DNA of 64,000 nucleotides from Promethearchaeota archaeon (GCA_019058295.1 JAHPZI010000002.1:1-64000); one strand, 5' to 3'. Numbered from the stretch's first letter, positions 12,377 through 59,317 are shown. Program-made: numbers and translations. Notes: generated by a model not told the origin, from the letters alone.

Positions 12377-12583
12377 GCCATAAAAGTTGGTGGCAATTAG
12401 GCACGCGCCGGAAGTTAAACTTGATTTCGTTGACAATAGTACTGCAGTTGCGATCTGTGGGAACTGTCAAACTGTAAATTGATTGCGCGCTTCGCGCCGC
12501 AAGCAAAGATTCGTTTACGGTCATGGGAATCTTGGAAAATACCCGGTCCCATCCGAACCCGGAAGCGCTTTAACTTTTGTGGT
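12377..12583 (+). other. Precursor processing stem and BHB-like motif flanking the permuted 5S rRNA
   Basis: GCCATAAAAGTTGG (12377-12390) pairs with TTAACTTTTGTGGT (12570-12583); GCG 12405-12407/CGC 12566-12568; central helix CCGG 12408-12411/CCGG 12559-12562, each followed by AAG. Confidence 0.8.
12414..12564 (+). rRNA. rrf: 5S rRNA, circularly permuted gene: 3' half 12414-12478, 35-nt linker 12479-12513, 5' half 12514-12564
   Basis: 5' half TTTACGGTCAT...ACCCGGTCCCATCCGAACCCGGAA has the conserved loop C CCGAAC; 3' half GTTAAAC...AGTACTG...GGGAAC...ACTGTAAA has the loop E motifs. Helix I TTTACGGT/ACTGTAAA, helix II GGAATC/GATTTC, helix V TTGACA/TGTCAA and helix IV CTGCAG/CTGTGG all pair. 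Confidence 0.88.
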
Positions 12584-12627
12584 AACTATTATAATTATTT
12601 TAATTTAATCCATTACTTTTTTCAATC

Positions 12628-13224
12628 ATGCCTAGTAAAATAAGAATATTTTTCAAATCAATCGGAAGAAAATGGTTCATATTGCTGATTTTACTTATCC
12701 TTATAATTGCTTATGCTGGCTGGGTTATCGCAGAAAATCTTACACCCGCAATTGTCGCAACAATTATTGCTATGGTGTTGCTTATTTTCTCGTATATAAC
12801 GAGATTTTATAAATCGAAAAAATTAAAAAGATTTATGAAAAAGTATTACAGGATCGAAGATAAAACTATTGCGAAAAAACTTGGTCGTTCTTTACGATCT
12901 GTCCAAGATAAAATGTTTGAATTGTCGCAAAAACAAACAAAAAGGGAGAAATGGCAGTTTTGGAGGAAAGAAAAAAATTGGTTAATTTTATTTTTAAATA
13001 GAAGTTATATTTTTTATCATAAGAATACTATTGAGAAATTTAAAGAATTTCATCATAAAGGTTTAGGAGATAAAAAAATTCTCGAAAATCTAAAAGAATT
13101 TAATATTGAAACAAGAGCAGAAGTAAAGGCCATCGAGGATGCATTAATTAAATATGAAAGACTTAGTGAAAGGGAAATTTCTGTGAAAGAACGAGAAGAA
13201 AGGGAGCGATTTCAGAATTTATAG
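12628..13224 (+). CDS. Hypothetical membrane protein (two N-terminal TM helices, basic cytoplasmic domain)
   Basis: Hydrophobic stretches at aa ~16-60; ATG start. Confidence 0.6.
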   Translation: MPSKIRIFFKSIGRKWFILLILLILIIAYAGWVIAENLTPAIVATIIAMVLLIFSYITRFYKSKKLKRFMKKYYRIEDKTIAKKLGRSLRSVQDKMFELSQKQTKREKWQFWRKEKNWLILFLNRSYIFYHKNTIEKFKEFHHKGLGDKKILENLKEFNIETRAEVKAIEDALIKYERLSEREISVKEREERERFQNL

Positions 13225-13272
13225 ATTCTTTCTAAAACAAATAAAAATAAGAAAAAAAAGTTCCTTTAATAT

Positions 13273-15471
13273 TCATTGAATTTTTTTTAGAAAAGCCTTA
13301 TATCCATTTAATACGGGCATACCTGATAATTTATCTAATTTGGATGAATTGGTTAAAACATTGATGTTTTCACCTGGATGCTGATTAGCATAAGAAAGAT
13401 ACGAGTTCTTATGCCCCCAACCGTGAGGATAACATACAACTCCAGACATTATATCATCAGTGGGGGACACTGGAATTTTAATAGAACCAAATTCGTTTTG
13501 AAGAATCACTAAATCGTGTTCAATTAAATTCAATCGAGTTGCGTCTTGAGAATTTATTAATAATTGAGGTTCTTGTTTATTTCGCCATAAACTTTCGATA
13601 TTGTGCATCCAGGAATTCATGGTTTTCAGATTACGCCTACCAATAACTACAAACTCGTTGATTTGAGACTCAATACGTTTTATATCCTCCATTTTTTTAT
13701 TATATGAGTTTTTACACAATTTTATTTGTTCCTCGATTAAAGGATTTAATAAAGTTATTTTTTTGTTTTTTGTTTGTATATATTTCTTGAGAACTCCATA
13801 TTCATTATTTCCTAATAATATTGTTTCATTATTCCTTAATTTCTTAATGGTTAATGTTCCAGAACTTAAGTGCGGAATTTTTTTTTCGATTACTTGCCCG
13901 AGAAACAGAAATAATTTTATAAAAAATTCGGGATGAAACTCTTTCTTAAAAAGCTTATAAATTTTTGGAATTAAATTTAAAATACGATTTCCAAACATCG
14001 GAACTTTCATCAATCTTGATAAACTCAAAAGAATTTCCCATTCTGCTTTTGGACCATGCTTATCAGGGGTTATTAGAGCATGATTGTATTCCACATGTGG
14101 AAAAATTTGATAATTAAGGTGATAAACCGGAGTGTTAGAATTCTCCATCGGGGTTCTCGTAGGTAATATATAATTCGCAGCGAATTCTGCTGTTTCATTA
14201 TTATAAAAGTCTAGAACAACACATAATTCTAGTTTTTCTAAAGCTCTTCTAAACTCATTTGAATTAGGAGCACTTAAAATTGGATTTCCTCCCGAAATAA
14301 TTAATGCTCTAACAGGATTTTTTTCAATTAAAATCTCTCTGGCTAAAACACTGAGAGGAAACGCACCCATAACCTCCGGATAATTTCCAATACGACTCCT
14401 GTAAGTATCAAAAGCACCCATACCTACTATTTTTCCTAAATTCGCTATATTGATTACATTTTTTCCAAAAATCGCTCCGCCTGGTCTGTCTAGTTTACCA
14501 GCAATGATGTTTAAAACATCAATTGCCCAAGCATTTAGTGTGCTAAAAGTAGATAAGCAGGTACCTAACCTTCCATAGATAACCGCTTTCTTAGTTTTTG
14601 CGAATTTTCGAGAAAGTTTATAAATAGTCTCGGAAGGTATTTTGCAAATTTTCTCGGCAAGTTTAGGAGTAAAAAATTTAACGAGTTCCCTTAAATTTTC
14701 ATAATTCGAACTATTTCGATTAAGATAATTTTTATCCTCTAAACTCTCTAACAAAATGACATTAATCATTGATAAGAGAAAATATATATCTGTATCTGGA
14801 AAAATTGGGATGTGATGTCCATCATTCTTTTTTGTAAGAATTTTTGCAGTTTCATTTCTACGCGGGTCGATTATATATATTTCTCCCCCCCTCCCTTTAA
14901 TTCCTTTCATTACTTTGAGAACATTTGAACAAGTAACTAAACTCAAATTTGTCACTGCTGGATTAGTGCCGATTAGAATTAATAAATCTGTTTTAGGTAT
15001 ATCCGGAATAGGCATTATTATTGAATTTCCATATAGAAAAAACTGTGCAACAAATTTGTTGTTATCATCTACAGATCCGGCGTTAAACATATTTTTACTC
15101 CCAATTGCATCCATAAAGCCTTTGGCGAACATACCATGGGCGTATTGGTGTAATGAATTCGTTCCCATATAATATGCTATAGAATGTGGGGAATATTTGT
15201 TTCGAATATTAGTGAGTTTCGCAGCAATTTCGTGAATTGCTTTTTTCCAAGAAATTTCATGAAAGGTATTACCAGAACGTATTAGAGGTTTTAGAATACG
15301 ATCTTTATCATTAGTAATTTCACCTAAAGCAATCCCTTTTGGACAACAAAATCCGCCACTTAATGGATAATTAGGATCAGGTTTTACAGAAAGGATTTTA
15401 TTGTTATTTACTTCAACTAATAATCCACATCCAGCATTACAAGTAGGGCAACTAAACTTTTTAATAACCAT
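13273..15471 (-). CDS. Molybdopterin-dependent oxidoreductase (DMSO reductase superfamily)
   Basis: N-terminal 4Fe-4S motif CPTCNAGC...FCCPKG, IGTNP, IIDPRRNETA, C-terminal dinucleotide-binding domain MNSWMHN...PHGWG. Confidence 0.9.
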   Translation of the reverse strand: MVIKKFSCPTCNAGCGLLVEVNNNKILSVKPDPNYPLSGGFCCPKGIALGEITNDKDRILKPLIRSGNTFHEISWKKAIHEIAAKLTNIRNKYSPHSIAYYMGTNSLHQYAHGMFAKGFMDAIGSKNMFNAGSVDDNNKFVAQFFLYGNSIIMPIPDIPKTDLLILIGTNPAVTNLSLVTCSNVLKVMKGIKGRGGEIYIIDPRRNETAKILTKKNDGHHIPIFPDTDIYFLLSMINVILLESLEDKNYLNRNSSNYENLRELVKFFTPKLAEKICKIPSETIYKLSRKFAKTKKAVIYGRLGTCLSTFSTLNAWAIDVLNIIAGKLDRPGGAIFGKNVINIANLGKIVGMGAFDTYRSRIGNYPEVMGAFPLSVLAREILIEKNPVRALIISGGNPILSAPNSNEFRRALEKLELCVVLDFYNNETAEFAANYILPTRTPMENSNTPVYHLNYQIFPHVEYNHALITPDKHGPKAEWEILLSLSRLMKVPMFGNRILNLIPKIYKLFKKEFHPEFFIKLFLFLGQVIEKKIPHLSSGTLTIKKLRNNETILLGNNEYGVLKKYIQTKNKKITLLNPLIEEQIKLCKNSYNKKMEDIKRIESQINEFVVIGRRNLKTMNSWMHNIESLWRNKQEPQLLINSQDATRLNLIEHDLVILQNEFGSIKIPVSPTDDIMSGVVCYPHGWGHKNSYLSYANQHPGENINVLTNSSKLDKLSGMPVLNGYKAFLKKIQ

Positions 15472-15522
15472 AATAGAAATTCACGTTGAATATTAAAAAG
15501 AATAAAAATAAAAATTTTAAAT

Positions 15523-15816
15523 TCAGTCTATTTCTCCAAAATCTAAATTAAAGTTAAAATGCTTTCGGATTGGCTTTTTAACATTCCAGATACATTTTAA
15601 TCCCTTTTCAAATTGCACTAAATCACCTTTCTTGAAATCGATTTTTTCCCCCGTTTCAGAATCCGTTACTTCAACTTCTCCATCCAAAATATAACATGTT
15701 TCTGTATCGCCGTAAGACCAATCGAATTCGCTTACCTCTTTGCTCCAAGTACCCCATGAGTTAACATTTAGCTTCTTTAATTCCTCTTCAGATGGGATTT
15801 TCTTCTTCATTTTCAT
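15523..15816 (-). CDS. Cupin domain protein (DUF861/Cupin_3)
   Basis: WGTWSKEVSEFDWSYGDTETCYILDGEVEV...GDLVQFEKGLKCIWNV. Confidence 0.85.
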   Translation of the reverse strand: MKMKKKIPSEEELKKLNVNSWGTWSKEVSEFDWSYGDTETCYILDGEVEVTDSETGEKIDFKKGDLVQFEKGLKCIWNVKKPIRKHFNFNLDFGEID

Positions 15817-16213
15817 TATTTAACCACCTATTCTAAGAATTTACTTATATTAATTAAGTTAGAGATAATTAAGTATAAGTTATTGCTAAATAAATATTTA
15901 TAGAGTTAAGAATCTTTAGAAATAAAATCATAGGATTAAAAATTTGCAGTTAGTAGTTCCAATTTTTTGTGCTTAATTTCAATCTATCAAAAAAATATGT
16001 TTAATAGTGATAAGTTTTATTTAAGAAATAAAAAACAAAAAAAATCAAAAATATAAAATTATATTTACAATTAAGATAAATTAAAATTATCGTGAATTAA
16101 GAATATAAAAAAATAAAAGTAGTAAGATAAAAATTATTATATTGAAAATACAATTTAATGAAAAATTTATTTTAAATTTCTTATTCAATAAAAAATAATA
16201 TCCAAAACAAAGA

Positions 16214-16747
16214 ATGGGTGCAAAATTGCCTAAAAAGTTCATTTTGAAGATTCTCACTGCTGGGGAGGGTGGTGTTGGTAAAACAACGCTCCTTCATAGA
16301 TATGTGGAAGGCCAATTCTCAGCAGAAACAAAAATGACTATAGGTGTAGAGTTTTTCTTAAAAGAAATCGAAGTTGACGGAAAACAATGCACTCTCCAAT
16401 TATGGGACTTCGGGGGGCAAGAACGGTTCCGCTTCTTATTAGAAAGTTATGTTTTAGGAGCAAAAGGTGCCTTATTAATGTTTGATCTAACAAGACCTAT
16501 GACGTTAGAGAACTTACAACAATGGGTTAATATTGTACGTAGAAGTGACAGTAATCTACCGATTCTTTTTTTAGGAACAAAACTCGACCTTGAAAATGAC
16601 GTAATGGTTGATGATGATTATGCTTTGCAATTTAAAGAAAAATTTAATCTTTTTGATTACTTGAAAATTTCTTCAAAATCAGGTGAAAATGTTTTTGAAT
16701 CTTTTGAATTAATAACAAGAACGATCTTAGATCGACAAACCTATTGA
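16214..16747 (+). CDS. Rab/Ras-superfamily small GTPase
   Basis: G1 GEGGVGKT, G2 TIGVEF, G3 WDFGGQERFR, G4 GTKLD, G5 SSK. Confidence 0.92.
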   Translation: MGAKLPKKFILKILTAGEGGVGKTTLLHRYVEGQFSAETKMTIGVEFFLKEIEVDGKQCTLQLWDFGGQERFRFLLESYVLGAKGALLMFDLTRPMTLENLQQWVNIVRRSDSNLPILFLGTKLDLENDVMVDDDYALQFKEKFNLFDYLKISSKSGENVFESFELITRTILDRQTY

Positions 16748-17199
16748 ATTCCAAGAAGTTGAAAAATATTAATATAATCATAATCGACTCTAATTTTATC
16801 CTCCTACCTTTCCAATTTAAAATTGATTATCTAAACGAAATCTACTTAAGTTTGGAAGGAAAAATAAGATTCTACATATTTAAACAAGTTATTGACGAAT
16901 TAAAAGCAAAAGAAAGAAGAGAACCAAAAGCCAGAAAATTTCGGAGAATGTTTAAATCTGGAATGTCATATTTAGAAAAAAATGAAAAAATCTTTCCAAT
17001 TTATTTTGTAGATGAAGTTAAAAATAAATATGAAACCACAGATGAATTTCTATTTAAATGGTGTATTAGATTAAAAAAAGAATATAGACATGTTTTTCTA
17101 GCCACTAATGATTCAGAATTACGTAAAAAAGCCAAAAATTCAAATATTAATGTTATTTTTTTAAGACAAAAGAAATATCTCTGTATTGAAACAGGTTAA
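16744..17199 (+). CDS. PIN-domain ribonuclease (Fcf1/Utp24-like)
   Basis: IIIDSNFILLP, VIDEL, TDEFL, LATNDSELRKKAK...IFLRQ. Confidence 0.8.
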   Translation: MNSKKLKNINIIIIDSNFILLPFQFKIDYLNEIYLSLEGKIRFYIFKQVIDELKAKERREPKARKFRRMFKSGMSYLEKNEKIFPIYFVDEVKNKYETTDEFLFKWCIRLKKEYRHVFLATNDSELRKKAKNSNINVIFLRQKKYLCIETG

Positions 17200-17997: not shown

Positions 17998-18147
17998 AGA
18001 ATTAAAAGTTAACAAACAAATGATATTTGATTTAAAATCTATATCATAATGAAGAAATAACCATTGAAGACGAAGATATAACTGAAAATGTTTATTTATA
18101 CTCATTAAATATTTACCTATAAAAATGTATTTCCCTATTGAGTAATT

Positions 18148-19359: not shown

Positions 19360-19361
19360 GA

Positions 19362-47100: not shown

Positions 47101-47121
47101 ATTTTTCCACCATTGATTTTA

Positions 47122-49743: not shown

Positions 49744-50625
49744 ATGGACAATCTAATATTAGAAAAGTTAGAGTTTGAAAAATTCCATGGTTTAGGCAAC
49801 GATTACATAATAATTAACGATATTCAATGGAAAATTCCTGAGAAAAAAAAGTCAGACTTAGCAAAAAAATTATGTGAGATGCATTTCTCAATAGGGGCAG
49901 ATGGTTTAATTTTCGTGGTCAATTCAGATAAAGCTGATATTAAAATGCGCATTTTTAATCCCGATGGTTCGGAATCGGAGATGTGTGGTAATGGGATTAG
50001 ATGCGTTTCGAAATATATATACGAAAATAATATAATTAATAAAAACGAAATAGACATCGAAACTCTAAAGGGTATAATAGTTGCGAGACTTAGAATTATT
50101 GATAGTAAAGTTAACAGCGTAACAATTGACATGGGAGCACCTATATTAGATTGTAAAAATATACCGGTAATTTCACCAGAAAATGAGAGTACTTGTTTAA
50201 GCGAGCCACTTGAGATTTTAGATAGAAAATTTATTTTTTCAGCCGTTTCAATGGGAAATCCACACGCTGTTATTTTTATTGACGAGCAATTAAATGATGA
50301 CGACTTGGAAAAATATGGTGGTGCTATTGAACCACACGAGCGGTTTCCAAATAAAGTAAATGTAGAATTTGTTAAAGTTTTATCTGATACAGAAGCTATA
50401 TTAAGAGTTTATGAAAGGGGGGTAGGTATAACTAAATCTTGTGGTACAGGAACATGCGCATCGGTGGTTGCTGGAACAAAACTAGGAAAATTTAGAGAAA
50501 ATGCACCCATTACTATACATAATGATGGGGGAGATCTAATTATTACTTATACCAGCGATACTGTTCTTATGCAAGGTCCTGTTGAAAAATCTTTTGAAGG
50601 AAAAATAGATTTGATTGAATTATAA
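49744..50625 (+). CDS. dapF: Diaminopimelate epimerase
   Basis: KFHGLGNDY, SEMCGNGIRC, SMGNPH, ERGVG.TKSCGTG. Confidence 0.95.
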   Translation: MDNLILEKLEFEKFHGLGNDYIIINDIQWKIPEKKKSDLAKKLCEMHFSIGADGLIFVVNSDKADIKMRIFNPDGSESEMCGNGIRCVSKYIYENNIINKNEIDIETLKGIIVARLRIIDSKVNSVTIDMGAPILDCKNIPVISPENESTCLSEPLEILDRKFIFSAVSMGNPHAVIFIDEQLNDDDLEKYGGAIEPHERFPNKVNVEFVKVLSDTEAILRVYERGVGITKSCGTGTCASVVAGTKLGKFRENAPITIHNDGGDLIITYTSDTVLMQGPVEKSFEGKIDLIEL

Positions 50626-50649
50626 AAAAGTAAATGAGGAAGTTGTAAA

Positions 50650-51966
50650 ATGGATTATGAAGATTGGTTGAAAAGAAAGAGTTTAGAATATCGAAATGAT
50701 ATTCTTTATTTTGCTGAAGTCAATACTATTGAAATTGCTGAGAAGTTTGGCACTCCTATTTATGTTATTAACGAGCAAATGATTCGAAAAAAATATAAAA
50801 AATTAAAAAAAATGCTCGATTCGGCATATAAGAAAAATAGAATCTATTTTGCTATAAAATCTAACTCAAATTTATCAATTTTAAAAATTTTGAATTCAGA
50901 AGGCTCTTATTATGATTGTTCTTCAACTGGAGAGATTTATACTTGTTTTAAGGCAGGTATTGCTCCCGATAGGATAATTTATACAGGAAACATGTTTACT
51001 GATGCTGATTTTGAATTTGCTGTTAAAAATGATGTTTTAGTTAATTTAGATAGCATTAGTCAATTAAAACGATTAGTTAAGGCATATGATAAATTGGGAA
51101 AGGAAAAAGGAATTGTATCTTTCAGGATTAATCCAGAATTCGGAGCTGGTCACCATGTTCACACAATAACAGCAGGAAAAGAGTTAAAATTTGGAATATT
51201 AGATAACCAAGTTATTGAAGCATATTCAAAAGCCATTGATGAGGGAGGATTTAAAAAATTTGGCATTCACCAACACATAGGTTCAGGAATAATAAATCCA
51301 TATGATTTTGAAAAAGCAGCAGAAAAATTTTTATCAATAATAAAGAATTTAACGAGTACTTTAAATATAGATCTTGAATTTATAGATTTTGGGGGAGGGC
51401 TTGGAATTCCTTACCGTCCAGAAGAAGAACCACTTGATTTAAAAACATATAAAGAAGTTGTGATAACTAAATTTAAAGATTTAGTTGGAGAAGGAAATGT
51501 TGGAACCCCTTATCTAATTATTGAACCTGGACGATATATAACGGCTGAAGCAAGCATAATTTTAACTCAAATTAATACTATAAAAAATAATGGACATAAA
51601 TTGTTCGCAGGAGTCAATACTGGATTTAATACATTAATTAGGCCTACAATGTATGGTTCTTATCACCATATTATACTTTGCAATAAAAATTTACGAGAGA
51701 GAAGCTTAAAATATGATGTAACAGGACCTATTTGTGAATCAGGTGATATTCTTGGTAAGAATCGAGAATTACCAGAGTTAGTTGAGGGCGATTATCTTGC
51801 CATACTCGATGCAGGGGCATATGGTTTTACTATGAGTAGTGTATATAATTCACGCCCACGGCCTGCTGAAATCTTACTCAATGATGGTCTCACATACAAG
51901 ATTAGAAAAGAAGAAACTTACGATGACTTGCTAACCCATCAATTTATTCCAGATCATCTGATGTAA
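50650..51966 (+). CDS. lysA: Diaminopimelate decarboxylase
   Basis: FAIKSN, HIGS, DFGGG, IEPGRY, GPICESGD, GAYG, YNSRPRP. Confidence 0.95.
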   Translation: MDYEDWLKRKSLEYRNDILYFAEVNTIEIAEKFGTPIYVINEQMIRKKYKKLKKMLDSAYKKNRIYFAIKSNSNLSILKILNSEGSYYDCSSTGEIYTCFKAGIAPDRIIYTGNMFTDADFEFAVKNDVLVNLDSISQLKRLVKAYDKLGKEKGIVSFRINPEFGAGHHVHTITAGKELKFGILDNQVIEAYSKAIDEGGFKKFGIHQHIGSGIINPYDFEKAAEKFLSIIKNLTSTLNIDLEFIDFGGGLGIPYRPEEEPLDLKTYKEVVITKFKDLVGEGNVGTPYLIIEPGRYITAEASIILTQINTIKNNGHKLFAGVNTGFNTLIRPTMYGSYHHIILCNKNLRERSLKYDVTGPICESGDILGKNRELPELVEGDYLAILDAGAYGFTMSSVYNSRPRPAEILLNDGLTYKIRKEETYDDLLTHQFIPDHLM

Positions 51967-52080
51967 TCTCTCAATTACATACCAATCAAAATAAATAAAT
52001 ATTTTCTTTCTCATTCTTATATTAGATAAAATTATAAAAATACGATCGATTAAGGCTTGGATACCCTTTAATCGTTCAAA

Positions 52081-52144
52081 ATGAAGATTAGGCGTAATGA
52101 AATCTGTTTATATACAGATTAATGAGAATACTGATCTGCCCTGA
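52081..52144 (+). ncRNA. Candidate box C/D guide sRNA targeting SSU rRNA helix 34
   Basis: C box ATGAAGA (52081-52087), D' ATGA (52097-52100), internal hairpin AATCTGT/ACAGATT, C'-like TAATGA, guide ATACTGATCTGCC (52128-52140), D box CTGA (52141-52144). Confidence 0.7.
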
Positions 52145-52199
52145 ATATTTTTTATAATTTTATCTTATTTTCTTTTTTAAAAAAAGTATAGTATGAAAT

Positions 52200-53021
52200 T
52201 TACAAATTTAAGACTTCACGCGTATTATATATCTTATTTTCTCTATCATCAGCAATAAATTTTATAGCAATTATAGCACCACTTGCGAAGCAGTTTCGAC
52301 TATGTGCTTGATGCTTAAATTCGATACGTTCGCCTGAACCTGCATATAAGATAATGTGATCACCCACAATATCTCCTGCCCGGATTGAATGAATTCCTAT
52401 TTCATTTTTAGCACCAATCTTTCGCTTATTAGGCCCTTTTGAACGTCCAAATTTCGCTACATCATCAATATTAACCCCAAGAGTTTCACTTATCATCTTA
52501 GCAGTAGTTAGAGCGGTACCACTAGGAGCATCAAGTTTCCTATGATGATGTGCTTCAATGATTTCAATATCCCAATCCTTCAAATATTCGGTCAGAACTG
52601 ACGCCATTTTGAAGAAAATATTAACTCCTGTTGCCATATTTGACGAAATAACGGCTGGTGCATTATATTCTTTTACTTTTTTTTCAAATTCTTCTATAAA
52701 TGAATTGGATAATCCAGTAGTTCCAATCACACATCGAATATTATTTTCTACACAAATCATGCAATTTTTTTCAGAAGCTTCTGCCAATGTAAAATCAACT
52801 GCTACCTCTGGTTTTGTCTCGTCAATTACCTCTTTAATTTCCGTAATATTCCTTATTTTTACATGATTCGGGTCCTTTTTGCCCACTAAAACTCCTAATT
52901 CATCACCTACATTCATTAAATCTAAAGCTGCGACAACATCAATATCCTCATCATCAAAAGCGTGTTGACTGATTAACGTACCCATTGAACCTGTTGGACC
53001 AAAAATTAATATTTTAATCAT
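52200..53021 (-). CDS. dapB: 4-hydroxy-tetrahydrodipicolinate reductase
   Basis: GPTGSMG, VIGTTG, IIEAHHHRKLDAPSGTA, RAGDIVGDH. Confidence 0.95.
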   Translation of the reverse strand: MIKILIFGPTGSMGTLISQHAFDDEDIDVVAALDLMNVGDELGVLVGKKDPNHVKIRNITEIKEVIDETKPEVAVDFTLAEASEKNCMICVENNIRCVIGTTGLSNSFIEEFEKKVKEYNAPAVISSNMATGVNIFFKMASVLTEYLKDWDIEIIEAHHHRKLDAPSGTALTTAKMISETLGVNIDDVAKFGRSKGPNKRKIGAKNEIGIHSIRAGDIVGDHIILYAGSGERIEFKHQAHSRNCFASGAIIAIKFIADDRENKIYNTREVLNL

Positions 53022-53047
53022 ATCAATTCCCTCTAAAAAGATTATTT

Positions 53048-53956
53048 TTATATTAAATTAAGTTGTTTGAGTACAGCTTTAATTTTTTCGCAATTAGCTT
53101 CTAAAGGAGGCGTTAGCGGCAATCTCATACGCTTATTCATTATACCCATAAGTTCAGCGGAATATTTTACAGGTCCTGGATTTGTTTCAATGAAAAGCAC
53201 TTTAAATAAGTCATATAATTCAAGCTGCATTTTTCTTGCTTTTTCCCAATCTCCGTTATTCATGGTTGTTGTAAATTTATATATTTTAGCGGGAATAATA
53301 TTTGAAGCAACACTAATAACTCCTACTCCGCCTAATGCCATCAAATGATAAGTCATACCATCATCTCCACTTAAAACGATAAAATCATCAGGGGTCATCT
53401 TAATTATTTTTGTTATCTGGTCTATATTACCACTCGCACATTTAATTCCAACTATATTATCTTTTTTTCTTGCTAACGTAGCTACGGTGTCCGGATCCAA
53501 ATTGCGTACTGTACGGCTCGGTACGTTATATAGAATTATTGGAATCGAAACCGAATCTGCAATAGCAGAAAAATGATCTATTAAAGAATGTTGGACTGGT
53601 TTGTTATAATATGGCACTACAACTAAACACCCATCAGCACCAGCTTTTTCAGCATATTGACTAAGTGATATCGCCTCATGAGTCGCATTACTTCCTGTAC
53701 CTACCAATACAAAAGGATCTTTTCCTGATTTTTTAGCCTCATCTACACAGATATCTATTGCCTGATGATGTTCGTCATGTGATAATGTAGCACTTTCTCC
53801 AGTTGTACCCATCGTTAAAGGTTGACAGCCATTTTCGATTTGAAATCTGATAAATTCTCTATATTTTGCATCGTTAATAGAAAAATCTTCATTAAGCGGT
53901 GTTATCATTGCCGTAATGGCATTCCTTAATTTATTTAATTTATTAAATTTTGACAT
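53048..53956 (-). CDS. dapA: 4-hydroxy-tetrahydrodipicolinate synthase
   Basis: GTTGESATL, PYYNKP, LYNVPSRT, IVGIK, LSGDD, ETNPGPVK. Confidence 0.95.
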   Translation of the reverse strand: MSKFNKLNKLRNAITAMITPLNEDFSINDAKYREFIRFQIENGCQPLTMGTTGESATLSHDEHHQAIDICVDEAKKSGKDPFVLVGTGSNATHEAISLSQYAEKAGADGCLVVVPYYNKPVQHSLIDHFSAIADSVSIPIILYNVPSRTVRNLDPDTVATLARKKDNIVGIKCASGNIDQITKIIKMTPDDFIVLSGDDGMTYHLMALGGVGVISVASNIIPAKIYKFTTTMNNGDWEKARKMQLELYDLFKVLFIETNPGPVKYSAELMGIMNKRMRLPLTPPLEANCEKIKAVLKQLNLI

Positions 53957-54059
53957 AATATATCTACCTTACAAATTTAACTGCTAATTAAAATATAATT
54001 TGTATAGAATCCTTTATAAGCCTTATTAATGAGGGAAATAATGGGGAAATATTTAGAAA

Positions 54060-55334
54060 TTATTTCTTGTTTTTTTTTATTTTTTTTTTAATTAAAAAAC
54101 CCATTTTGCTCTGAAGTCCAAACAGAGGAATAAAGCCATAACTCAAATTTTGATTAAAAGTGCTAGCCGTTTCATAAGTTGCTAAGTTCATATCATATAT
54201 TCCGTAAGGAGATTCCCTTGCTACAACTTCTGCGCTTCCTTTAAATAATTTTACTTTAACACTACCAGTTACTTTTTTGTTTATTTCATTTATAAACGCA
54301 TCTAATGCATCTTTTAAAGGATCAACCCATAATCCCTCATAAGCTAACTCAGACCATCTTTGATCTACCATGTTTTTAAAGGAATTTTCTTGCTTAGTAC
54401 ATACATATTTCTCAAGATCTTTATGCGCTTTAATAAGCATTAATGCCGCAGGAACTTCATAAGTTTCTCTTGATTTTAATCCAATGGCTCGATCTTCCAT
54501 GTGTTCTATTCTTCCAACACCATGCTTACATCCTAAATCGTGTAATGTTCTTAATAAGTCAATACTACTCATCTTTTCCCCATTTAAGCCTACTGGAACC
54601 CCTTCTTCAAAATTAATAGTTATATATTCGGGCTCATTGGGAGCCTTCTCAGGAGCAATTGTCCATTCTCTCGAATCTTCAGGTGGTTCAATTTCTGGGT
54701 GTTCTAAAATATCACATTCTGCACTTCTTCCAAAGAGATTCTCATCAATGCTATATTTCTTATATTTATTGACTGGAATACCATGTCTTTCTGCGTATTT
54801 GACTTCCTCATCTCGCCCCATATTCCATTCAATTAAGGGTTGTAATACCTCGATTTCTGGAGCGTACGCATTTGCTGTAATATTTATTCTAATCTGATCG
54901 TTTCCTTTCCCAGTACACCCATGTGCTACTACGGAAATTCCTTCCTTTTTAGCAATTTTAATAGCTTCTATAGCAATTAAAGGTCTCCCTACGGCAGTGC
55001 TTAACGGATATATCCCTTGATATAACCCATTGGCTTTAATTGCAGGAAAAACATAGTCTTTTACAAATCTTTCTTTTAAATCTACTGTGTAATGTTTAAC
55101 AGCACCTAATTTATACGCTTTTTCTTCAATTTCTTTAAACCTTGTTGGATCAGCAAATTCTTGACCTAAATCAGCTGTAAATGTATAGACTTTGGCGCTA
55201 TATGTTTCTTGAAGCCACTTAATCATGCAGGAAGTGTTTGATCATATATACATCAATTGTATATATTCTAATCCTCCTGAATACATTAATAAAATCTTAT
55301 CATACTTATCCTTTTTGGGTCCTAATTGATTCAT
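54060..55334 (-). CDS. argG: Argininosuccinate synthase, split by a 30-nt intron: join(55334..55268, 55237..54060), 414 aa
   Basis: Spliced product MNQLGPKKDKYDKILLMYSGGLDTSCMIKWL... restores the PP-loop; downstream HGCTGKGNDQIR, YSIDENL, KSRETYE motifs. Confidence 0.93.
55238..55267 (-). other. BHB-type mRNA intron in argG (30 nt, contains an in-frame TGA)
   Basis: Minus strand GGA[GATT]AG|A-ATATATACA-attga-TGTATATAT-[GATC]AA|AC: 4-bp central helix, two 3-nt bulges, 9-bp intron stem. Confidence 0.9.
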
Positions 55335-55513
55335 ATTCCATCATCTCAAAAGAATAAACATATTAAGATTTGATAGAATTTATTTTTTCCCCTAAAATTA
55401 TTTAAGAAATTACTGGATGATAATGAAAAAAATTAAATATTGAATTATCAATTAGTAATTTGCAATTAACAATTTATTCTATTTTTTAAAACAAATAGCA
55501 AAAATTCGATATT

Positions 55514-57010
55514 TTGAACGAAAAAGATAATAATTTAGAAATAAGTGATGAAATATATAAGAAAATTTACAAATCCATTTCTACACAAATTTATACATGG
55601 CGTAAAATTGATGACGATCTAATTCTAATTGATTATAATAATGCTGCCGAAGAATTTACTGGAGCAAGAATAAAGGATTACATCGGAATAAAAGCTACAG
55701 AATTATATAAAGATCAACCAAACATTTTGAATGAATTATTTGATTGTGCTAATACACAATTAGATATCTCTAGAGAGATGGAATATAAAGGCATATCGAC
55801 GGGAGAGGAAAAATATTTAGAAGTTATATATAATTTTATAACCCCTGATTTAGTTTTAGTTCATATGAAAGATATTACCGATAGAAGAAAAGTGGAAGAG
55901 ATCCTGAAGAAAGAAAAACAGGAAAAATCTATTATCTTAGAAAATATCTTGGAACATATAGTTTTTCAAACTTTAGATCATACAGTTATATATCCTAATA
56001 AAGCTGCGTGTGATTCAGTTAGTCAAAAACCAGAACAATTAATTGGACGAAAGTGTCATCAAATATGGCAAGGCAGTGATGAGGTTTGTGAAAACTGTCC
56101 AGTTGAACATTCATTTAAAACGAAAAAACCAGAGACCAATGAAATCACAACTGGTGATGGGAGAGTTTGGTTTATTAAAGGATATCCTATTCTTGATGAT
56201 GATGGAAATTTAATAGGTGGTGTCGAGCTTACCTCTGAAATAACGGAAAAGAAGCATATTGAAGTTAAATTAAAAAAATCAGAAAAAATGTATCGAGAAG
56301 CTTACAATAGTAGTAATCTTTATAAAGATTTATTTACCCATGATATAAATAACATATTTCAAAATATCTTATCTTCAATCGAACTCTACAATTTATATAG
56401 GAAAGATCCTAACAAACAAACAGAACTTGAGGAAATTGAAAATTTAATAGTAGAACAAATTTTAAGAGGTACAATGCTAGTATCAAATGTTCAGAACCTT
56501 TCAACAATCGAAAATTATGATATGTCTCTATTTTCAATTGAAGTTAACGAAGTTTTAAAAAAGGCAATCTCTTTTGTAAGACAGAGTTTTCCTAATAAAA
56601 AACTAAATATTAAGACTGAATCAATACAAAACGAGTATTTTGTTATGGCAAATGAGTTATTGCAAAACGCTTTTGAAAATCTTTTATTTAACGCTGTGAA
56701 ACATAATATAAATGAAATTATCAAGATTGATATAAAATTATCAAAAGACGTAAAAGATGATAAAAAAATAATAAAAATAGAATTTATTGATAATGGTATC
56801 GGGATTCATGACTCCATGAAAGATGAAATATTCCATAGGGAATATAGAGATTATTTAAAATATAAACTCCCTTCAGGAATAGGATTAGGTCTGCTATTTA
56901 CAAAAAAAATGATCGAAAGTTTTAATGGTGAAATAAAAGTTGAAGATAGGATTGAAGGGGATTATTCCCAAGGTAGTAATTTTATTATCATGATACCAGA
57001 GGAAAAATGA
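55514..57010 (+). CDS. PAS-domain sensor histidine kinase
   Basis: Two PAS domains, H-box THDINN, NLLFNAVKH, DNGIGI, GIGLGL, GSNF. Confidence 0.9.
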   Translation: MNEKDNNLEISDEIYKKIYKSISTQIYTWRKIDDDLILIDYNNAAEEFTGARIKDYIGIKATELYKDQPNILNELFDCANTQLDISREMEYKGISTGEEKYLEVIYNFITPDLVLVHMKDITDRRKVEEILKKEKQEKSIILENILEHIVFQTLDHTVIYPNKAACDSVSQKPEQLIGRKCHQIWQGSDEVCENCPVEHSFKTKKPETNEITTGDGRVWFIKGYPILDDDGNLIGGVELTSEITEKKHIEVKLKKSEKMYREAYNSSNLYKDLFTHDINNIFQNILSSIELYNLYRKDPNKQTELEEIENLIVEQILRGTMLVSNVQNLSTIENYDMSLFSIEVNEVLKKAISFVRQSFPNKKLNIKTESIQNEYFVMANELLQNAFENLLFNAVKHNINEIIKIDIKLSKDVKDDKKIIKIEFIDNGIGIHDSMKDEIFHREYRDYLKYKLPSGIGLGLLFTKKMIESFNGEIKVEDRIEGDYSQGSNFIIMIPEEK

Positions 57011-57011
57011 A

Positions 57012-57365
57012 ATGGCAACCATTTTCATTATTGAAGATGATATTTCTCTACAGAAATTATATGATATGATTTTAAGCACCTCAGGACATCAAGTTGTGGG
57101 AGTTGCGAATAATGGGGATGAGGCGGTAAAAATCTATGAATCATTTTCTGTAAAACCAGACATAATAATAATGGATCATAGAATGCCTATCAAAAATGGG
57201 ATTGAAGCGACAAAGGAAATCCTAAAAATTAGCAATCACTCAAAAATTATATTTGCAAGTGCAGATAATAGTGTAAAAAACCTAGCACTGTCAATTGGAG
57301 CCATTAAATTCATTGAAAAACCATTTTCAATGGAAAAATTCCTAAAAATAATTGAAAAAATATAA
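57012..57365 (+). CDS. Single-domain response regulator (CheY-like)
   Basis: IIEDD, IIMDHRMP..NG, EKPF. Confidence 0.92.
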   Translation: MATIFIIEDDISLQKLYDMILSTSGHQVVGVANNGDEAVKIYESFSVKPDIIIMDHRMPIKNGIEATKEILKISNHSKIIFASADNSVKNLALSIGAIKFIEKPFSMEKFLKIIEKI

Positions 57366-57469
57366 TAAATTACAAATTTTAGTGAATTTAACTTAATATA
57401 TTTATTTCAAAAGAAATAAATGAATTTAAAATAATTAATTTACTAAGTCTATATTCTTAAATCTTTAAA

Positions 57470-58474
57470 ATGAAAGCTGATTATTTAGACAAATTTCAAG
57501 GTACTCTCATCTCCGTAGCTATAGGTGATACTCTAGGGCATCCTTTTGAAGGAAGATTAAGATCAGAGATCTATTCTCGTTTTGATAAATTTGAGGAGTT
57601 TATTCAAAATAATAAAAGGCTCTTCAATACATATACTGACGACACACAACTCACAATACATACAGCTGAAGCGTTAATTCAAGGAGGCGGATTTAATATT
57701 AATAATTTCATCCGAGAATATGTTAAATGGTTAGAAGAACCACCAATTGGACCTGGATATGGATGTCTCTCATCAATTCAAAAATTGAAATATGGCATTC
57801 CATGGGAAAAAGCAGCTTCAAATTCGGGAGGAAATGGAACAGCTATGCGTGTCTCTCCAATAGGATTATTTTATTGTAAAGATCTAGAAGATTTAAAAAT
57901 AAATGCGATACGATCAAGTATTATTACCCATTCCCATCCAGCTGCGTCTGCTGGTGCTGTTGTAATCGCCAGAGCAATTGCTTATTTAATAGAAAGAGGA
58001 CCAGAAATCCATTTTTCGATTGATGATTTTTTTAATGTATTAATATCTTTCATTTCTGGCTCTGATATGGAGATTTGGGAAGAATTCATTGAGATTTTGA
58101 AAAAACTAAGAGATAATCTTGATTTACCAGTAGAAGCTGGTTTAATTAAATTTTCTCAGATAGGAGTGAAATCACCCTATTTTATTGAACATTTTTTGGG
58201 TCAAGCATTTGTCCATCCTTACACGCTAAGTACAGTTGCCTGTGCAATTTTTATATTTCTAAAAAAAATGAATTCATCATTTAAAGAATGTATCTTTGAA
58301 TTGTCTACTGCTGGTGGAGATAGCGACACAATTGGAGCAATCGGTGGTAGCTTAGTTGGTGCATATTATGGTTTTACTAACATTCCTGAAGATTTGATAA
58401 AATTAGTAAAAAATAATAAAAAAATATTGCAATTAGCGGAATCCCTCTATGAAAAATTTAAGGAGAGATATTAA
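57470..58474 (+). CDS. ADP-ribosylglycohydrolase family protein
   Basis: AIGDTLG, YTDDTQ, GNGTAMRVSP, THSH, GGDSDTIGA. Confidence 0.92.
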   Translation: MKADYLDKFQGTLISVAIGDTLGHPFEGRLRSEIYSRFDKFEEFIQNNKRLFNTYTDDTQLTIHTAEALIQGGGFNINNFIREYVKWLEEPPIGPGYGCLSSIQKLKYGIPWEKAASNSGGNGTAMRVSPIGLFYCKDLEDLKINAIRSSIITHSHPAASAGAVVIARAIAYLIERGPEIHFSIDDFFNVLISFISGSDMEIWEEFIEILKKLRDNLDLPVEAGLIKFSQIGVKSPYFIEHFLGQAFVHPYTLSTVACAIFIFLKKMNSSFKECIFELSTAGGDSDTIGAIGGSLVGAYYGFTNIPEDLIKLVKNNKKILQLAESLYEKFKERY

Positions 58475-58479
58475 ATCAT

Positions 58480-59058
58480 TTAATTTAAATTCCCAAGAAG
58501 ATCTTTTAACTTTTTAGAACAAGACAAGCAGAATTTAGTTGGTTTTTCATCTGCTTCGAGTAAACTGTTTGAGAATTGCATAACACATTTATTATTACAA
58601 TGTTTCAAGCAAAAAGTATGCCCGAGCTCATGTATTGCTTCTTTAAGAACTCTCAATTCAAATTGAGATTTATTTTCAGGTCGATTATAAAAGCCTTCTT
58701 TAAGGCGCATTATTTGAATTAAAGAAGCTTCAGGCGAATTTAGATCTTGCTTTTTTGGAATTATTGCAATACCAAATATAAATTTTAATTCTCCTGAAAA
58801 TATGTCTTTATCGATTATTCCTAATGTGCGAAAATGTTTACTCTCACTACAATATTTATGAAGCCTTCTTACAGTTAATGAACCATTATATTGTCTCCTT
58901 GACGGATTATATTCAGATTCTTTGAGTGGAATAGAGTCAGGCGAAATTTCTACTGAATCAATAAATTCTTTAAAAAACCAATTCAATTTTTTCTTCAATT
59001 TCTTCAGAATAATCGTATCTAAATCGCCAATTTTTTGAAGATAAATTACTTTTTTCAA
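58480..59058 (-). CDS. Archaemetzincin-family Zn metalloprotease
   Basis: YNPSRRQY, KEAIHELGHTFCLKHCNNKCVMQFSNS...FCLSC. Confidence 0.88.
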   Translation of the reverse strand: MKKVIYLQKIGDLDTIILKKLKKKLNWFFKEFIDSVEISPDSIPLKESEYNPSRRQYNGSLTVRRLHKYCSESKHFRTLGIIDKDIFSGELKFIFGIAIIPKKQDLNSPEASLIQIMRLKEGFYNRPENKSQFELRVLKEAIHELGHTFCLKHCNNKCVMQFSNSLLEADEKPTKFCLSCSKKLKDLLGNLN

Positions 59059-59215
59059 AATTAAAACTTATATGTATTTGTTTTCAATTTAATTATTCAA
59101 ACTATGAAAATGTAAGTTATGAAATATTTTTTTACAATTGTTCAAAAAAAGCAAAATTGAAAAAATAAGATTAACTTTTGAATTGTATAATTATTATTAT
59201 TTATCGATCCTCCTC

Positions 59216-59317
59216 GGGAGGGTGGTCTAGCTTGGTATGATTCCTGGTTTGGGACTTCAAACAGAAAGCTTGGAGCAAAACACCAGGAGGCCGGGGGTTC
59301 GAATCCCCCCCCTCCCA
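59216..59317 (+). tRNA. tRNA-Pro(TGG) with a 28-nt canonical 37/38 intron (59254-59281)
   Basis: Acceptor GGGAGGG/CCCTCCC+A, anticodon stem CCTGG/CCAGG, T arm GGGGG-TTCGAAT-CCCCC; BHB helix TTTG/CAAA with bulges GG|A and AC|A; CCA not encoded. Confidence 0.95.

What the first reader, a model, noticed from the sequence alone, without database searches (positions are those of the whole stretch)
12377..59317. Three RNA classes carry BHB substrates within 47 kb: a possible expanded EndA/RtcB processing system
Seen: BHB or BHB-like motifs at tRNA-Pro (59254-59281), the argG mRNA (55238-55267) and the permuted 5S precursor. Inference: this density suggests more cryptic mRNA introns or permuted RNAs genome-wide, and that some 'truncated' or 'frameshifted' Asgard genes are spliced. 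Neither endA nor rtcB is in this window.
Basis: inference. Interest (0 to 1): 0.85.

Follow-up and report, generated by a model that had tools for sequence, protein, structure and literature searches.

The report
tRNA-type splicing of tRNA, mRNA, 5S
In this Asgard-type archaeon a tRNA gene, an enzyme gene (argG) and the 5S ribosomal RNA gene all appear to need cutting and rejoining by the tRNA-splicing enzymes. The scrambled 5S gene is shared by most of its order, and I found no paper describing this in archaea.

Summary
All three observations hold.

- **tRNA-Pro(UGG):** it carries a textbook 28-nt bulge-helix-bulge (BHB) intron.
- **argG:** a 30-nt, stop-containing insert splits the SGGL|D|TS motif. 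Its BHB cut sites restore the Asp codon exactly. Homologous inserts with compensatory stem changes sit at the same codon in four genera, and most relatives lack them precisely.
- **5S gene:** it is circularly permuted, with the 3' half before the 5' half. No canonical 5S gene was found in this genome or in 23 of 24 family members searched. The permuted core occurs in 118 of 131 family genomes and in two further families. It has at least three different breakpoints and extra BHB introns. A covarying leader-trailer stem carries a BHB whose cuts always give a 119-122-nt joined product.

The inference is also supported.

- EndA is the (alpha-beta)2 type with the broad-specificity loop.
- I confirmed three more split genes in this genome (uL11, iorB, a MoxR-like ATPase).
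- rtcB itself carries a 29-nt BHB intron in three relatives.

Earlier notes of this scan had already reported such mRNA mini-introns on other contigs of this genome.

Caveats:
- No RNA data could be found.
- The 47-kb proximity has no functional meaning.
- A BHB descriptor scan alone shows no excess over a control.

The parts
12378..12388 (+). Leader strand of the 5S processing stem (CCAUAAAAGUU). It pairs with trailer 12572-12582.
   Evidence: RNAalifold on 14 loci: the leader-trailer helix shows compensatory changes in 6 of 8 pairs. A contiguous complementary run of 8 bp or more is present in 97% of 37 loci, although the sequences differ between genera.
12405..12414 (+). Leader half of the BHB-like motif: h' GCG (12405-12407), H CCGG (12408-12411), bulge AAG (12412-12414). 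Predicted cut between 12413 and 12414.
   Evidence: Layout tables. H is fully paired in 34 of 37 loci. All 5 loci with trailer CCAG have leader CUGG. h' covaries (CGC/GCG, CGUU/AACG, ACGC/GCGU, UGUU/AACA).
12414..12478 (+). 5S rRNA 3' half: loop B 3' side, helix II 3' strand, helices V and IV, helix I 3' strand.
   Evidence: Weak Rfam 5S hit. Helices II, IV, V and I covary. Part of covariance model R1, which scores 98 bits here. The rotated sequence aligns full-length with canonical 5S genes.
12479..12513 (+). 35-nt G+C-rich hairpin linker joining the natural 3' and 5' ends of helix I. Most relatives have only a UUCG or CUUG tetraloop here.
   Evidence: Alignment A2: a 31-nt insertion relative to relatives, seen in the three assemblies of this species (G000, G005, G007) and, with compensatory stem changes, in G001. 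No BHB was found with bulges of 2-4 nt. Its fate is unresolved.
12514..12564 (+). 5S rRNA 5' half: helix I 5' strand, helix II 5' strand, helix III, loop C. It ends at the predicted cut between 12564 and 12565.
   Evidence: Rfam 5S positions 26-52 match 12540-12565 at 21.5 bits. Covariation.
12559..12582 (+). Trailer half of the BHB-like motif: H CCGG (12559-12562), bulge AAG (12563-12565), h' CGC (12566-12568), and the trailer strand of the processing stem (12572-12582).
55268..55334 (-). argG exon 1 (MNQLGPKKDKYDKILLMYSGGL plus the first base of the Asp codon).
   Evidence: It is colinear with the uninterrupted N-termini of 21 relatives. It is called as a separate 30-aa gene on a public contig.
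55238..55267 (-). 30-nt BHB mini-intron in the argG pre-mRNA, with an in-frame UGA.
   Evidence: Exact scanner hit. Homologous inserts in G007, G005, G012, G121 and G112: H and h' are 100% paired and 3 pairs show double changes, against 17-52% pairing in slid controls. It is precisely absent in most relatives.
54060..55237 (-). argG exon 2 (last two bases of the Asp codon, then TSCMIKWLQ... to the stop).
   Evidence: PF00764 and PF20979 hit the called product. 58-98% identity to ArgG of relatives.
59216..59253 (+). tRNA-Pro(UGG) exon 1.
59254..59281 (+). 28-nt canonical hBHBh' intron at position 37/38.
59282..59317 (+). tRNA-Pro(UGG) exon 2.

Best explanation
The three features are real substrates of one RNA cut-and-join pathway. 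The splicing endonuclease EndA, here an (alpha-beta)2 enzyme with the broad-specificity loop, cuts in the two bulges of a bulge-helix-bulge motif. An RtcB-type ligase joins the ends.

- **tRNA-Pro:** this is ordinary intron removal.
- **argG:** removing the 30 nt from the pre-mRNA rebuilds the GAC (Asp) codon of the ATP-binding motif SGGLDTS. Without it no active enzyme can be made.
- **5S gene:** the gene is circularly permuted. Leader and trailer pair into a processing stem that presents a BHB. The two cuts release the body, and joining ...CCCGGAA to GUUAAAC... restores the continuous 5S sequence. Because helix I is capped (by a UUCG tetraloop in most relatives and a 35-nt hairpin here), the joined product is a covalently closed circle. 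It is about 120 nt in relatives and 151 nt here unless the hairpin is removed.

The three are not a local system. They are samples of a lineage-wide expansion of EndA substrates: many ~30-nt mRNA mini-introns, heavily interrupted tRNA genes, and a permuted 5S gene across most of the order.

Shown here: sequence anatomy, conservation, covariation, and the presence of the enzymes. Inferred: actual cleavage, ligation, and the circular end state.
For: **argG**
- The BHB cut sites coincide with the ortholog-defined insertion boundaries and restore SGGL-D-TS.
- The same insert is present in three assemblies of this species plus a public run contig, and in G012, G121 and G112, which belong to three other genera.
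- H and h' are 100% paired. Three pairs show double changes. One synonymous exon change (GGA to GGG) keeps H paired.
- A non-homologous 32-nt insert sits at the same junction in G139, and canonical cuts again restore the frame.
- The insert's reading frame is not conserved and carries extra stops in G121 and G112.

**5S**
- No canonical 5S gene was found in G000 or in 23 of 24 family members, including the 99%-complete same-species genome G007. The sister family f2 has a canonical gene in 9 of 11 genomes.
- Model R1 of the capped core finds one full-length hit in 118 of 131 f1 genomes, in f3, and in 2 of 4 f4 genomes.
- 21 of 34 consensus pairs show compensatory changes, including helix II, which forms between the two swapped halves.
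- The rotated sequence aligns end to end with canonical 5S genes at 53-63% identity.
- The BHB is maintained at two different breakpoints, with H and h' covarying.
- Predicted joined products are 119-122 nt for both breakpoint types.
- The loop-C inserts of relatives are canonical BHB introns whose removal gives exactly the uninterrupted sequence.

**Enzymes**
- EndA alpha has the Tyr/His/Lys triad and the loop insert with the Lys equivalent to A. pernix K44 (PMC5829648).
- EndA beta has Ser in place of the catalytic His.
- RtcB is present in 22 of 24 family genomes, including G007.

**Further substrates:** uL11, iorB and a MoxR-like gene in G000, and rtcB in G002, G006 and G021.
Against: - There is no RNA evidence of any kind. 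No RNA run was listed, so neither the junctions nor the circular form have been observed.
- RtcB was not found in this assembly, which is 79% complete.
- The 5S motif is relaxed. On the leader side there is no exon helix next to a 3-nt bulge; the alternative is a 2-nt bulge followed by 3 bp. Trailer CCGG can also pair within helix III, so two folds compete.
- The outer helix of the argG BHB is interrupted.
- The 35-nt linker of this species has no recognisable BHB, so its fate and the size of the mature RNA are unknown.
- My genome-wide descriptor scan gave no excess over a mirror-geometry control. The shape alone therefore proves nothing; the case rests on comparative data, which come from related and so non-independent genomes.
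Confidence: 0.8

Rival explanations
1. The 5S RNA is permuted in the final product too, as in stramenopile mitochondria. Leader and trailer are trimmed, by EndA or by other nucleases, but the ends in loop B are never joined. The ribosome then carries a linear, tetraloop-capped, permuted 5S.
For: The helix I cap makes a linear permuted molecule foldable. A precedent exists in which the product stays permuted (PMC4267664). No ligation has been observed here. RtcB was not found in G000.
Against: - Breakpoints differ (loop B 3' side, loop C, loop B 5' side) even within single genera g2, g6 and g11. Yet the predicted pieces always add up to the same 119-122 nt. This is most simply explained if the discontinuity is erased.
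- The ends are created inside a BHB, whose products (2',3'-cyclic phosphate and 5'-OH; established knowledge) are the substrates of RtcB. Archaeal 16S and 23S precursors cut at BHB motifs are circularised (PMC12918454).
Confidence: 0.17
2. The argG insert is not spliced. Either the gene is a pseudogene, or it is expressed by stop-codon readthrough or recoding, or from the internal AUG.
For: Gene callers produce a 388-aa ORF starting at an internal ATG. The insert length is a multiple of three.
Against: - Both exons remain intact and conserved (76-98% identity) in four genera that carry the insert.
- Readthrough would replace the invariant Asp of SGGLDTS with 10-11 unconserved residues. G121 and G112 have two stops in that frame.
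- The internal-AUG product lacks the ATP-binding motif.
- Substitutions in the insert preserve RNA pairing, not coding.
Confidence: 0.03
3. The inserts and the 5S ends are processed by something other than EndA/RtcB, for example another endonuclease that recognises the hairpins, or self-cleavage.
For: No enzymology is available. Several motifs are relaxed. The 35-nt 5S linker lacks a BHB, so at least one further activity may act on the 5S RNA.
Against: - In every checked case the rule 'cut after the second base of each 3-nt bulge flanking a 4-bp helix' predicts the exact functional junction. This holds for argG, rtcB, iorB, uL11, the MoxR-like gene, the 5S loop-C introns, and both 5S breakpoint types.
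- The genome encodes the EndA type known to accept relaxed motifs.
Confidence: 0.05
4. The three substrates form a physically linked functional unit, so the 47-kb clustering is meaningful.
For: Three substrates lie within 47 kb.
Against: - The genes between them are unrelated, and endA and rtcB lie elsewhere.
- Confirmed substrates are spread over contigs C2, C30 and others.
- With about 15-40 substrates in 3.2 Mb, the expectation is 0.2-0.6 per 47 kb. A window with three is therefore not surprising among about 68 such windows (my estimate).
Confidence: 0.02

Closest known systems
cbf5 pre-mRNA BHB intron of Crenarchaeota (Watanabe 2002; Yokobori 2009, PMC2738675)
   Same: A short BHB-bounded intron lies inside a protein-coding sequence. 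It is patchily gained and lost among relatives. The host has a hetero-oligomeric EndA.
   Different: Here the gene is argG, and the same genome has several other split genes (uL11, iorB, a MoxR-like ATPase; others were reported by this scan). The introns are uniformly about 28-32 nt. The lineage is Asgard-type, not Crenarchaeota. I found no paper reporting this for Asgard archaea.
Circularly permuted tRNA genes (Cyanidioschyzon merolae; Thermofilum pendens: PMC3978253, PMC3218864)
   Same: The 3' half is encoded upstream of the 5' half. Leader and trailer form a BHB. The predicted pathway is cut, then ligate into a circle.
   Different: The RNA is 5S rRNA. In permuted tRNAs the circle is reopened at the natural termini by RNase P and tRNase Z. 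Here the natural termini are replaced by a conserved UUCG or CUUG tetraloop, which points to a circle that is not reopened.
Permuted mitochondrial 5S rRNA of brown algae and other stramenopiles (PMC4267664)
   Same: A 5S rRNA gene with permuted domain order and a closed helix I.
   Different: That product stays permuted and linear, with no BHB and no religation. Here a covarying BHB at the gene ends predicts rejoining, and the breakpoint moves between close relatives.
BHB-dependent circularisation of archaeal 16S/23S rRNA, and circular or permuted 23S in ribosomes (PMC7758197, PMC12918454)
   Same: A processing stem carries a BHB and EndA-type cuts are followed by circularisation. For 23S, a circular form can be the mature one.
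   Different: Those genes are colinear with the RNA. PMC12918454 states that this processing applies to 16S and 23S 'but not 5S rRNAs'.
(alpha-beta)2 EndA with the L1 / Crenarchaea-specific loop (A. pernix 3P1Z; Asgard survey in PMC5829648)
   Same: There are two paralogs. Alpha has the Tyr/His/Lys triad and the loop Lys. Beta is non-catalytic.
   Different: Nothing unusual was seen in the enzyme itself. The novelty lies in the range of substrates.

Membership tests
Archaeal BHB intron / EndA substrate | [quoted passage not shown] | tested here: met
   tRNA-Pro and argG are exact hits of my geometric scanner. On the 5S trailer side the layout is H + AAR bulge + h' in 37 of 37 loci. On the leader side it is H + a 3-nt bulge.
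Archaeal BHB intron / EndA substrate | Flanking helices on both sides (strict hBHBh') | tested here: inconclusive
   Met for tRNA-Pro. In argG the outer helix is interrupted (1 bp, a 3-nt loop, then 5 bp). The 5S motif has no exon helix next to the leader bulge unless that bulge is read as 2 nt. These are HBh'-type relaxed motifs.
Archaeal BHB intron / EndA substrate | Cutting after the second bulge base on each strand and joining gives the functional RNA | tested here: met
   By sequence only. Asp codon restored in argG. VGY|DINCG restored in rtcB. 5S junction CCCGGAA|GUUAAAC, with products of 119-122 nt. Loop-C introns removed exactly.
Archaeal BHB intron / EndA substrate | Cleavage by EndA and ligation by RtcB demonstrated | not testable with these tools
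   No RNA run was listed and no enzymology is possible. EndA alpha and beta are present. RtcB is absent from this 79%-complete assembly but present in G007 and in 22 of 24 family genomes.
cbf5-type archaeal pre-mRNA intron | The insert interrupts a conserved coding sequence, and intron-less orthologs are colinear at the predicted junction | tested here: met
   21 relatives read ...YSGGLDTSC... without interruption. The insert is present in 5 lineages.
cbf5-type archaeal pre-mRNA intron | RNA structure, not coding, is conserved in the insert | tested here: met
   98.2% of cells are paired. 3 pairs show changes on both sides. Slid controls give 17-52%. The insert's frame has variable stops.
Circularly permuted RNA gene expressed through a circular intermediate | 3' half upstream of 5' half in one transcription unit, with natural ends joined by a short linker | tested here: met
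   The rotated sequence aligns full-length with canonical 5S genes.
Circularly permuted RNA gene expressed through a circular intermediate | Leader and trailer form the BHB that defines the new junction | tested here: met
   This also holds at the second breakpoint type.
Circularly permuted RNA gene expressed through a circular intermediate | The circle is reopened at the natural termini to give a linear mature RNA | tested here: not met
   In most relatives the natural termini are replaced by a 4-nt UUCG or CUUG loop directly capping helix I, and no processing signal is seen. Only the gene structure was tested; the RNA end state is unknown.
5S rRNA (Rfam RF00001) | Score at or above the gathering threshold (38 bits) on the genomic sequence | tested here: not met
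   21.5 and 15.2 bits for the two halves, and no hit in the genome. This is expected for a permuted gene.
5S rRNA (Rfam RF00001) | Helices I-V and loop C/E sequence signatures present, with covariation | tested here: met
   (helices I, II, III, IV and V; 21 pairs with compensatory changes).
(alpha-beta)2 EndA with broad-specificity L1/CSL loop | Two paralogs, one with the Tyr/His/Lys triad and one lacking a catalytic residue | tested here: met
   Alpha (L001:1168-1770) aligns with the A. pernix catalytic chain at 128 bits with ...PGLEHSPF... conserved. Beta (L002:1429-2031) has Ser where M. jannaschii has the catalytic His.
(alpha-beta)2 EndA with broad-specificity L1/CSL loop | N-terminal loop insert with the conserved Lys (A. 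pernix K44) | tested here: met
   The alignment places query ...GISKPRLEYFSKP... against A. pernix ...DVEKPRGADFEGP..., so K59 aligns with K44. The role of K44 is taken from PMC5829648.

The most novel reading that the evidence does not exclude
In most of this Asgard order the ribosome carries a covalently closed circular 5S rRNA, made by BHB cutting and RtcB joining of a permuted precursor. Because the joint is erased, the gene's breakpoint can drift: at least three positions were seen, and it switches within genera. EndA/RtcB splicing has also become a general layer of gene expression that many protein genes depend on, including the ligase gene rtcB itself in some species, which would give a self-dependent loop.
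Probability: 0.5. Interest if true: 0.92.

Novelty: new variant of a known kind. Interest (0 to 1): 0.86.

Why it matters
**5S rRNA.**
- Its gene is assumed to be colinear and easy to find in every archaeon.
- A whole family (118 of 131 genomes), plus relatives in two other families, encodes it only in permuted form. That explains why standard annotation reports no 5S gene there.
- A circular 5S RNA in a ribosome, if confirmed, would be a first as far as I could find in the searchable literature.

**mRNA introns.**
- Together with the ~30-nt mRNA mini-introns, this shows that in the closest prokaryotic relatives of eukaryotes the tRNA-splicing machinery serves tRNA, rRNA and mRNA.
- This bears on ideas about the origin of non-spliceosomal mRNA splicing (HAC1/XBP1) and about intron tolerance before the spliceosome.

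**Practical consequence.** 'Truncated' or 'frameshifted' genes in these genomes need re-annotation before metabolic or phylogenetic inference. Examples are argG, uL11, iorB, the MoxR-like gene, rtcB and probably actin.

Tried and rejected
**RNA evidence.** The look-up of sequencing runs (kind rna) on window 50000-59999 listed no RNA holder.

**Taxon name.** The search for related loci with ArgG returned only distant ArgG genes. The look-up of encoding contigs returned one unnamed run contig. I therefore could not name the taxon. 'Asgard-type' rests on a eukaryote-like actin (PF00022, 409 bits) and on the EndA type.

**Genome-wide BHB descriptor plus ORF-joining scans.** I ran four versions with increasing filters: coding potential, a gene map, and bulge composition. 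None gave an excess over a mirror-geometry control (for example 3320 vs 3362, and 82 vs 95 for 26-34 nt). At 31% G+C the descriptor has no statistical power on its own.

**Pfam checks of scan candidates.**
- C8:91314-91286 (ABC ATPase | permease) and C20:8969-8937 (SDR | aminotransferase) are ordinary gene boundaries.
- C1:36701-36672 is inconclusive.
- C28:30746-30715 and C10:45493-45524 have wrong first exons, although both genes lack their N-terminal domain.
- The two Fe-S candidates (C23:57490-57518, C22:103318-103346) could not be settled by Pfam.

**Other attempts.**
- A BHB in the 35-nt 5S linker was not found with bulges of 2-4 nt.
- The actin C-terminal inserts did not fit the strict geometry in my scan.
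- ARAGORN in default mode and Rfam at the gathering threshold miss the tRNA intron and the 5S gene, respectively.

Full report
**What was asked.** From these it inferred an expanded EndA/RtcB processing system with more hidden cases genome-wide. I checked each observation, then the inference.

**tRNA-Pro.**
- Rfam finds one tRNA in the window, at 59216-59317, scoring 52.5 bits, with 31 unaligned bases in the anticodon arm.
- ARAGORN finds it only with intron search switched on, as Pro(UGG) with a 28-nt intron.
- My scanner encodes the strict geometry: a 4-bp central helix (H), a 3-nt bulge 3' of H on each strand, and an inner helix (h'). It hits exactly 59254-59281, with H UUUG/CAAA, bulges GG|A and AC|A, and the anticodon stem as outer helix.
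- This is an ordinary archaeal intron at position 37/38.

**argG: the insert.**
- The 388-aa ORF at 54060-55226 (- strand) starts inside the protein. Upstream, 22 codons (55334-55269) read MNQLGPKKDKYDKILLMYSGGL.
- Then come 30 nt with an in-frame TGA, followed by TSCMIKW.
- Twenty-one relatives read ...YSGGLDTSC... without interruption.
- The scanner finds a BHB at exactly 55267-55238: H GAUU/GAUC, bulges AG|A and AA|A, a 9-bp inner stem. Cutting after the second bulge base joins ...UUAG to ACAC..., which gives GAC (Asp).
- The outer helix is imperfect, so this is an HBh'-type motif.

**argG: comparative evidence.**
- The same insert is in the two other assemblies of this species (G005, G007) and in a public run contig. 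There, gene callers split the gene into a 30-aa and a 388-aa product.
- A family-wide search found homologous 30-nt inserts at the same codon in G012 (genus g4), G121 (g3) and G112 (g8). It also found a non-homologous 32-nt insert at the same junction in G139 (g9), where canonical cuts (H GUCU/GGAC, bulges UG|A and AU|A) again restore G-L-D-T-S.
- On the six homologous sequences, H and the inner stem are 100% paired and three pairs change on both sides. Overall 98.2% of cells pair, against 17-52% when partners are slid by 1-3 columns.
- The insert's reading frame is not conserved and gains further stops.
- A pseudogene, readthrough, and an internal start are therefore very unlikely. The gene must be spliced.

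**5S: the gene is permuted.**
- Rfam finds only fragments: model positions 26-52 at 12540-12565 (21.5 bits) and a weak hit at 12386-12480.
- Read directly, 12414-12478 is the 3' half of a 5S rRNA and 12514-12564 is the 5' half.
- No canonical 5S gene was found in this assembly, nor in 23 of the 24 family members searched, including the 99%-complete same-species genome G007. The sister family f2 has a canonical gene in 9 of 11 genomes, some as tandem copies.
- DNA search finds the same swapped order in 18 of those 24 genomes.
- RNAalifold on 14 loci recovers helices I-V across the swapped halves, plus a leader-trailer stem. Of its 34 pairs, 21 show compensatory changes.
- Rotating the sequence gives a 116-nt RNA that aligns end to end with f2 5S genes at 53-63% identity.

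**5S: distribution.** I built a covariance model of the part that is contiguous only in the permuted form: 3' half, cap, and the start of the 5' half (98 positions). It finds one full-length match in:
- 118 of 131 family genomes (80-111 bits);
- the single f3 genome (75 bits);
- 2 of 4 f4 genomes (47 bits, and permuted on inspection).

In f2 it gives only weak partial signals.

**5S: the processing motif.**
- In 37 distinct loci the leader ends ...h'-C[CU]GG-A(A/C/G)G|UUAAAC, and the trailer reads ...GAAC-CC[GA]G-AAN-h'.
- H is fully paired in 34 of 37 loci. All five CCAG trailers face CUGG leaders, which shows that the leader copy is a pairing partner, not a duplication relic.
- h' covaries: CGC/GCG, CGUU/AACG, ACGC/GCGU, UGUU/AACA.
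- An outer stem of 8-20 bp, whose sequence differs between genera, closes the structure.
- Cutting after the second bulge base on both strands and joining gives ...CCCGGAA-GUUAAAC..., the normal 5S sequence.

**5S: moving breakpoints and extra introns.**
- Eleven loci have a different breakpoint, in loop C. There the leader is followed by CAUCCGAACCCGGAAGUUAAAC and the gene ends ...ACCCGGUC.
- The same leader hairpin, H, h' and outer stem are present. Both types occur within genera g2, g6 and g11.
- The f3 genome has a third breakpoint, in the 5' side of loop B.
- Predicted joined products are 119-122 nt for both main types.
- Twelve further loci give 150-151 nt because of one 30-nt insert.
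  - In relatives this insert is a canonical BHB intron in loop C, whose 30-nt register removes it to leave exactly CCCAUCCGAA|CCCGGAA. G125 has a different 31-nt intron nearby.
  - In this species it is a G+C-rich hairpin at the helix I cap (12479-12513), for which I found no BHB.
- Most relatives cap helix I with UUCG or CUUG.

**5S: circle or nicked?**
- A conserved stable tetraloop at the old termini, breakpoints that move between close relatives, and a constant product length all fit a molecule in which the joint is erased. That would be a circular 5S RNA.
- This step is inferred. A linear permuted product, as in stramenopile mitochondria (PMC4267664), is the main rival.

**Enzymes.**
- Two EndA paralogs exist.
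  - One aligns best with the A. pernix catalytic chain (128 bits). It keeps the catalytic His context and carries the N-terminal loop insert with the Lys equivalent to K44.
  - The other has Ser at the catalytic His position.
- This is the (alpha-beta)2 type with the L1 loop, which is known to accept relaxed motifs and had already been reported for Asgard archaea (PMC5829648; also 10.64898/2026.10.13.758758).
- RtcB is missing from this 79%-complete assembly. It is present in G007 and in 22 of 24 family genomes.
- In G002, G006 and G021, rtcB is itself interrupted by 29 nt with a canonical BHB: H UUGG/CCAA, bulges AU|A and AA|A, a 9-bp stem. Removing it restores VGY|DINCG.

**Genome-wide test of the inference.**
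- Descriptor scans combined with ORF-joining filters gave no excess over a mirror-geometry control. The shape is too common at 31% G+C to be evidence by itself.
- Individual candidates could be tested with Pfam on single exons.

| Candidate | Insert | Pfam result | Verdict |
|---|---|---|---|
| uL11, C30:126724-126695 | 30 nt | exon 2 starts at L11_N profile position 21/58 | split gene |
| iorB, C2:173581-173551 | 31 nt | exon 2 starts at POR profile position 29/173 | split gene |
| MoxR-like ATPase, C30:2337-2365 | 29 nt | AAA_5 profile split at 44\|53 | split gene |
| C8:91314-91286 | 29 nt | ABC ATPase \| permease | gene boundary |
| C20:8969-8937 | 33 nt | SDR \| aminotransferase | gene boundary |

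- The actin gene (409 bits) stops at profile position 390/410, which is consistent with a split C-terminus.
- Earlier notes of this scan on other contigs of the same genome list many such mini-introns and estimate 10-25 per genome. I used them as leads and confirmed iorB, uL11 and the MoxR-like gene myself.

**Is the 47-kb density meaningful?** No. The substrates are scattered over the contigs, the enzymes lie elsewhere, and a window containing three is expected by chance among about 68 such windows.

**Novelty.**
- Searches of the held literature found no archaeal permuted or circular 5S gene, and no Asgard mRNA BHB introns.
- One recent paper states that circularising processing applies to 16S and 23S 'but not 5S rRNAs' (PMC12918454).
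- The pathway itself is known; the range of substrates is new.
- No RNA data were obtainable, so expression, cleavage, ligation and circularity remain to be shown.

Noticed in passing
Relatives: L066 (G002:C3:15700-16300), L067 (G006), L068 (G021): In three relatives from two genera, rtcB, the ligase gene of the pathway, is itself split by a 29-nt canonical BHB insert after ...PGGVGY. If spliced, the mRNA for the ligase would need that same ligase.
   Followed up: partly
Relatives: L018, L024, L026, L027, L031, L071, L078, L081, L091, L092 (loop C of 5S); L082 (G125): Many permuted 5S genes carry an additional ~30-nt canonical BHB intron in loop C. G125 has a different 31-nt intron a few bases away. 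Removing either gives exactly the uninterrupted loop C.
   Followed up: yes
Relatives: L030 (G022), L013 (G013), L076, L079, L085, L090, L094, L097-L100; L012 (G026, family f3); L197, L198 (family f4): The 5S permutation breakpoint differs: loop B 3' side, loop C, or loop B 5' side. It switches within genera g2, g6 and g11, while the leader hairpin and processing stem stay the same.
   Followed up: partly
window 12479-12513: A 35-nt G+C-rich hairpin sits where relatives have a UUCG tetraloop on helix I. It is shared, with compensatory changes, by G001. No BHB was found, so it is either a retained expansion segment or is removed by another activity.
   Followed up: partly
G000 contig C22:30303-33335 (outside the window): An array of 27 closely packed, intron-less tRNA genes covers most amino acids. 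By contrast, about half of the 17 tRNA genes ARAGORN found elsewhere in the genome carry introns. This could be a mobile-element or viral tRNA array, or a contaminating contig.
   Followed up: no
G000 C28:30066-30713 (-) and C10:45525-47135 (+): A DUF166 ORF begins at profile position 46/221, and a GH38 ORF lacks its N-terminal catalytic domain. Both may be further split genes whose upstream exons I did not locate.
   Followed up: no
G000 C2:177079-178182 (-), L186: A eukaryote-like actin gene (PF00022, 409 bits) ends at profile position 390/410. The C-terminal ...KMWVTR...EYKEMGPQVIHRCF lies downstream in other frames behind hairpin inserts that did not fit my strict BHB geometry.
   Followed up: partly
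Relatives in family f2: G032:C1:1399892-1400758, G039:C66:1456-1934: The sister family, which has canonical 5S genes, carries them as tandem copies about 365-375 nt apart. Tandem copies are the classical starting point for making permuted genes by duplication and end deletion.
   Followed up: no
L190 (G139:C19:88020-88340): argG of G139 has a 32-nt insert of unrelated sequence at exactly the same splice junction as the 30-nt intron. This suggests repeated insertion at a site whose exon sequence can supply half of a BHB.
   Followed up: partly
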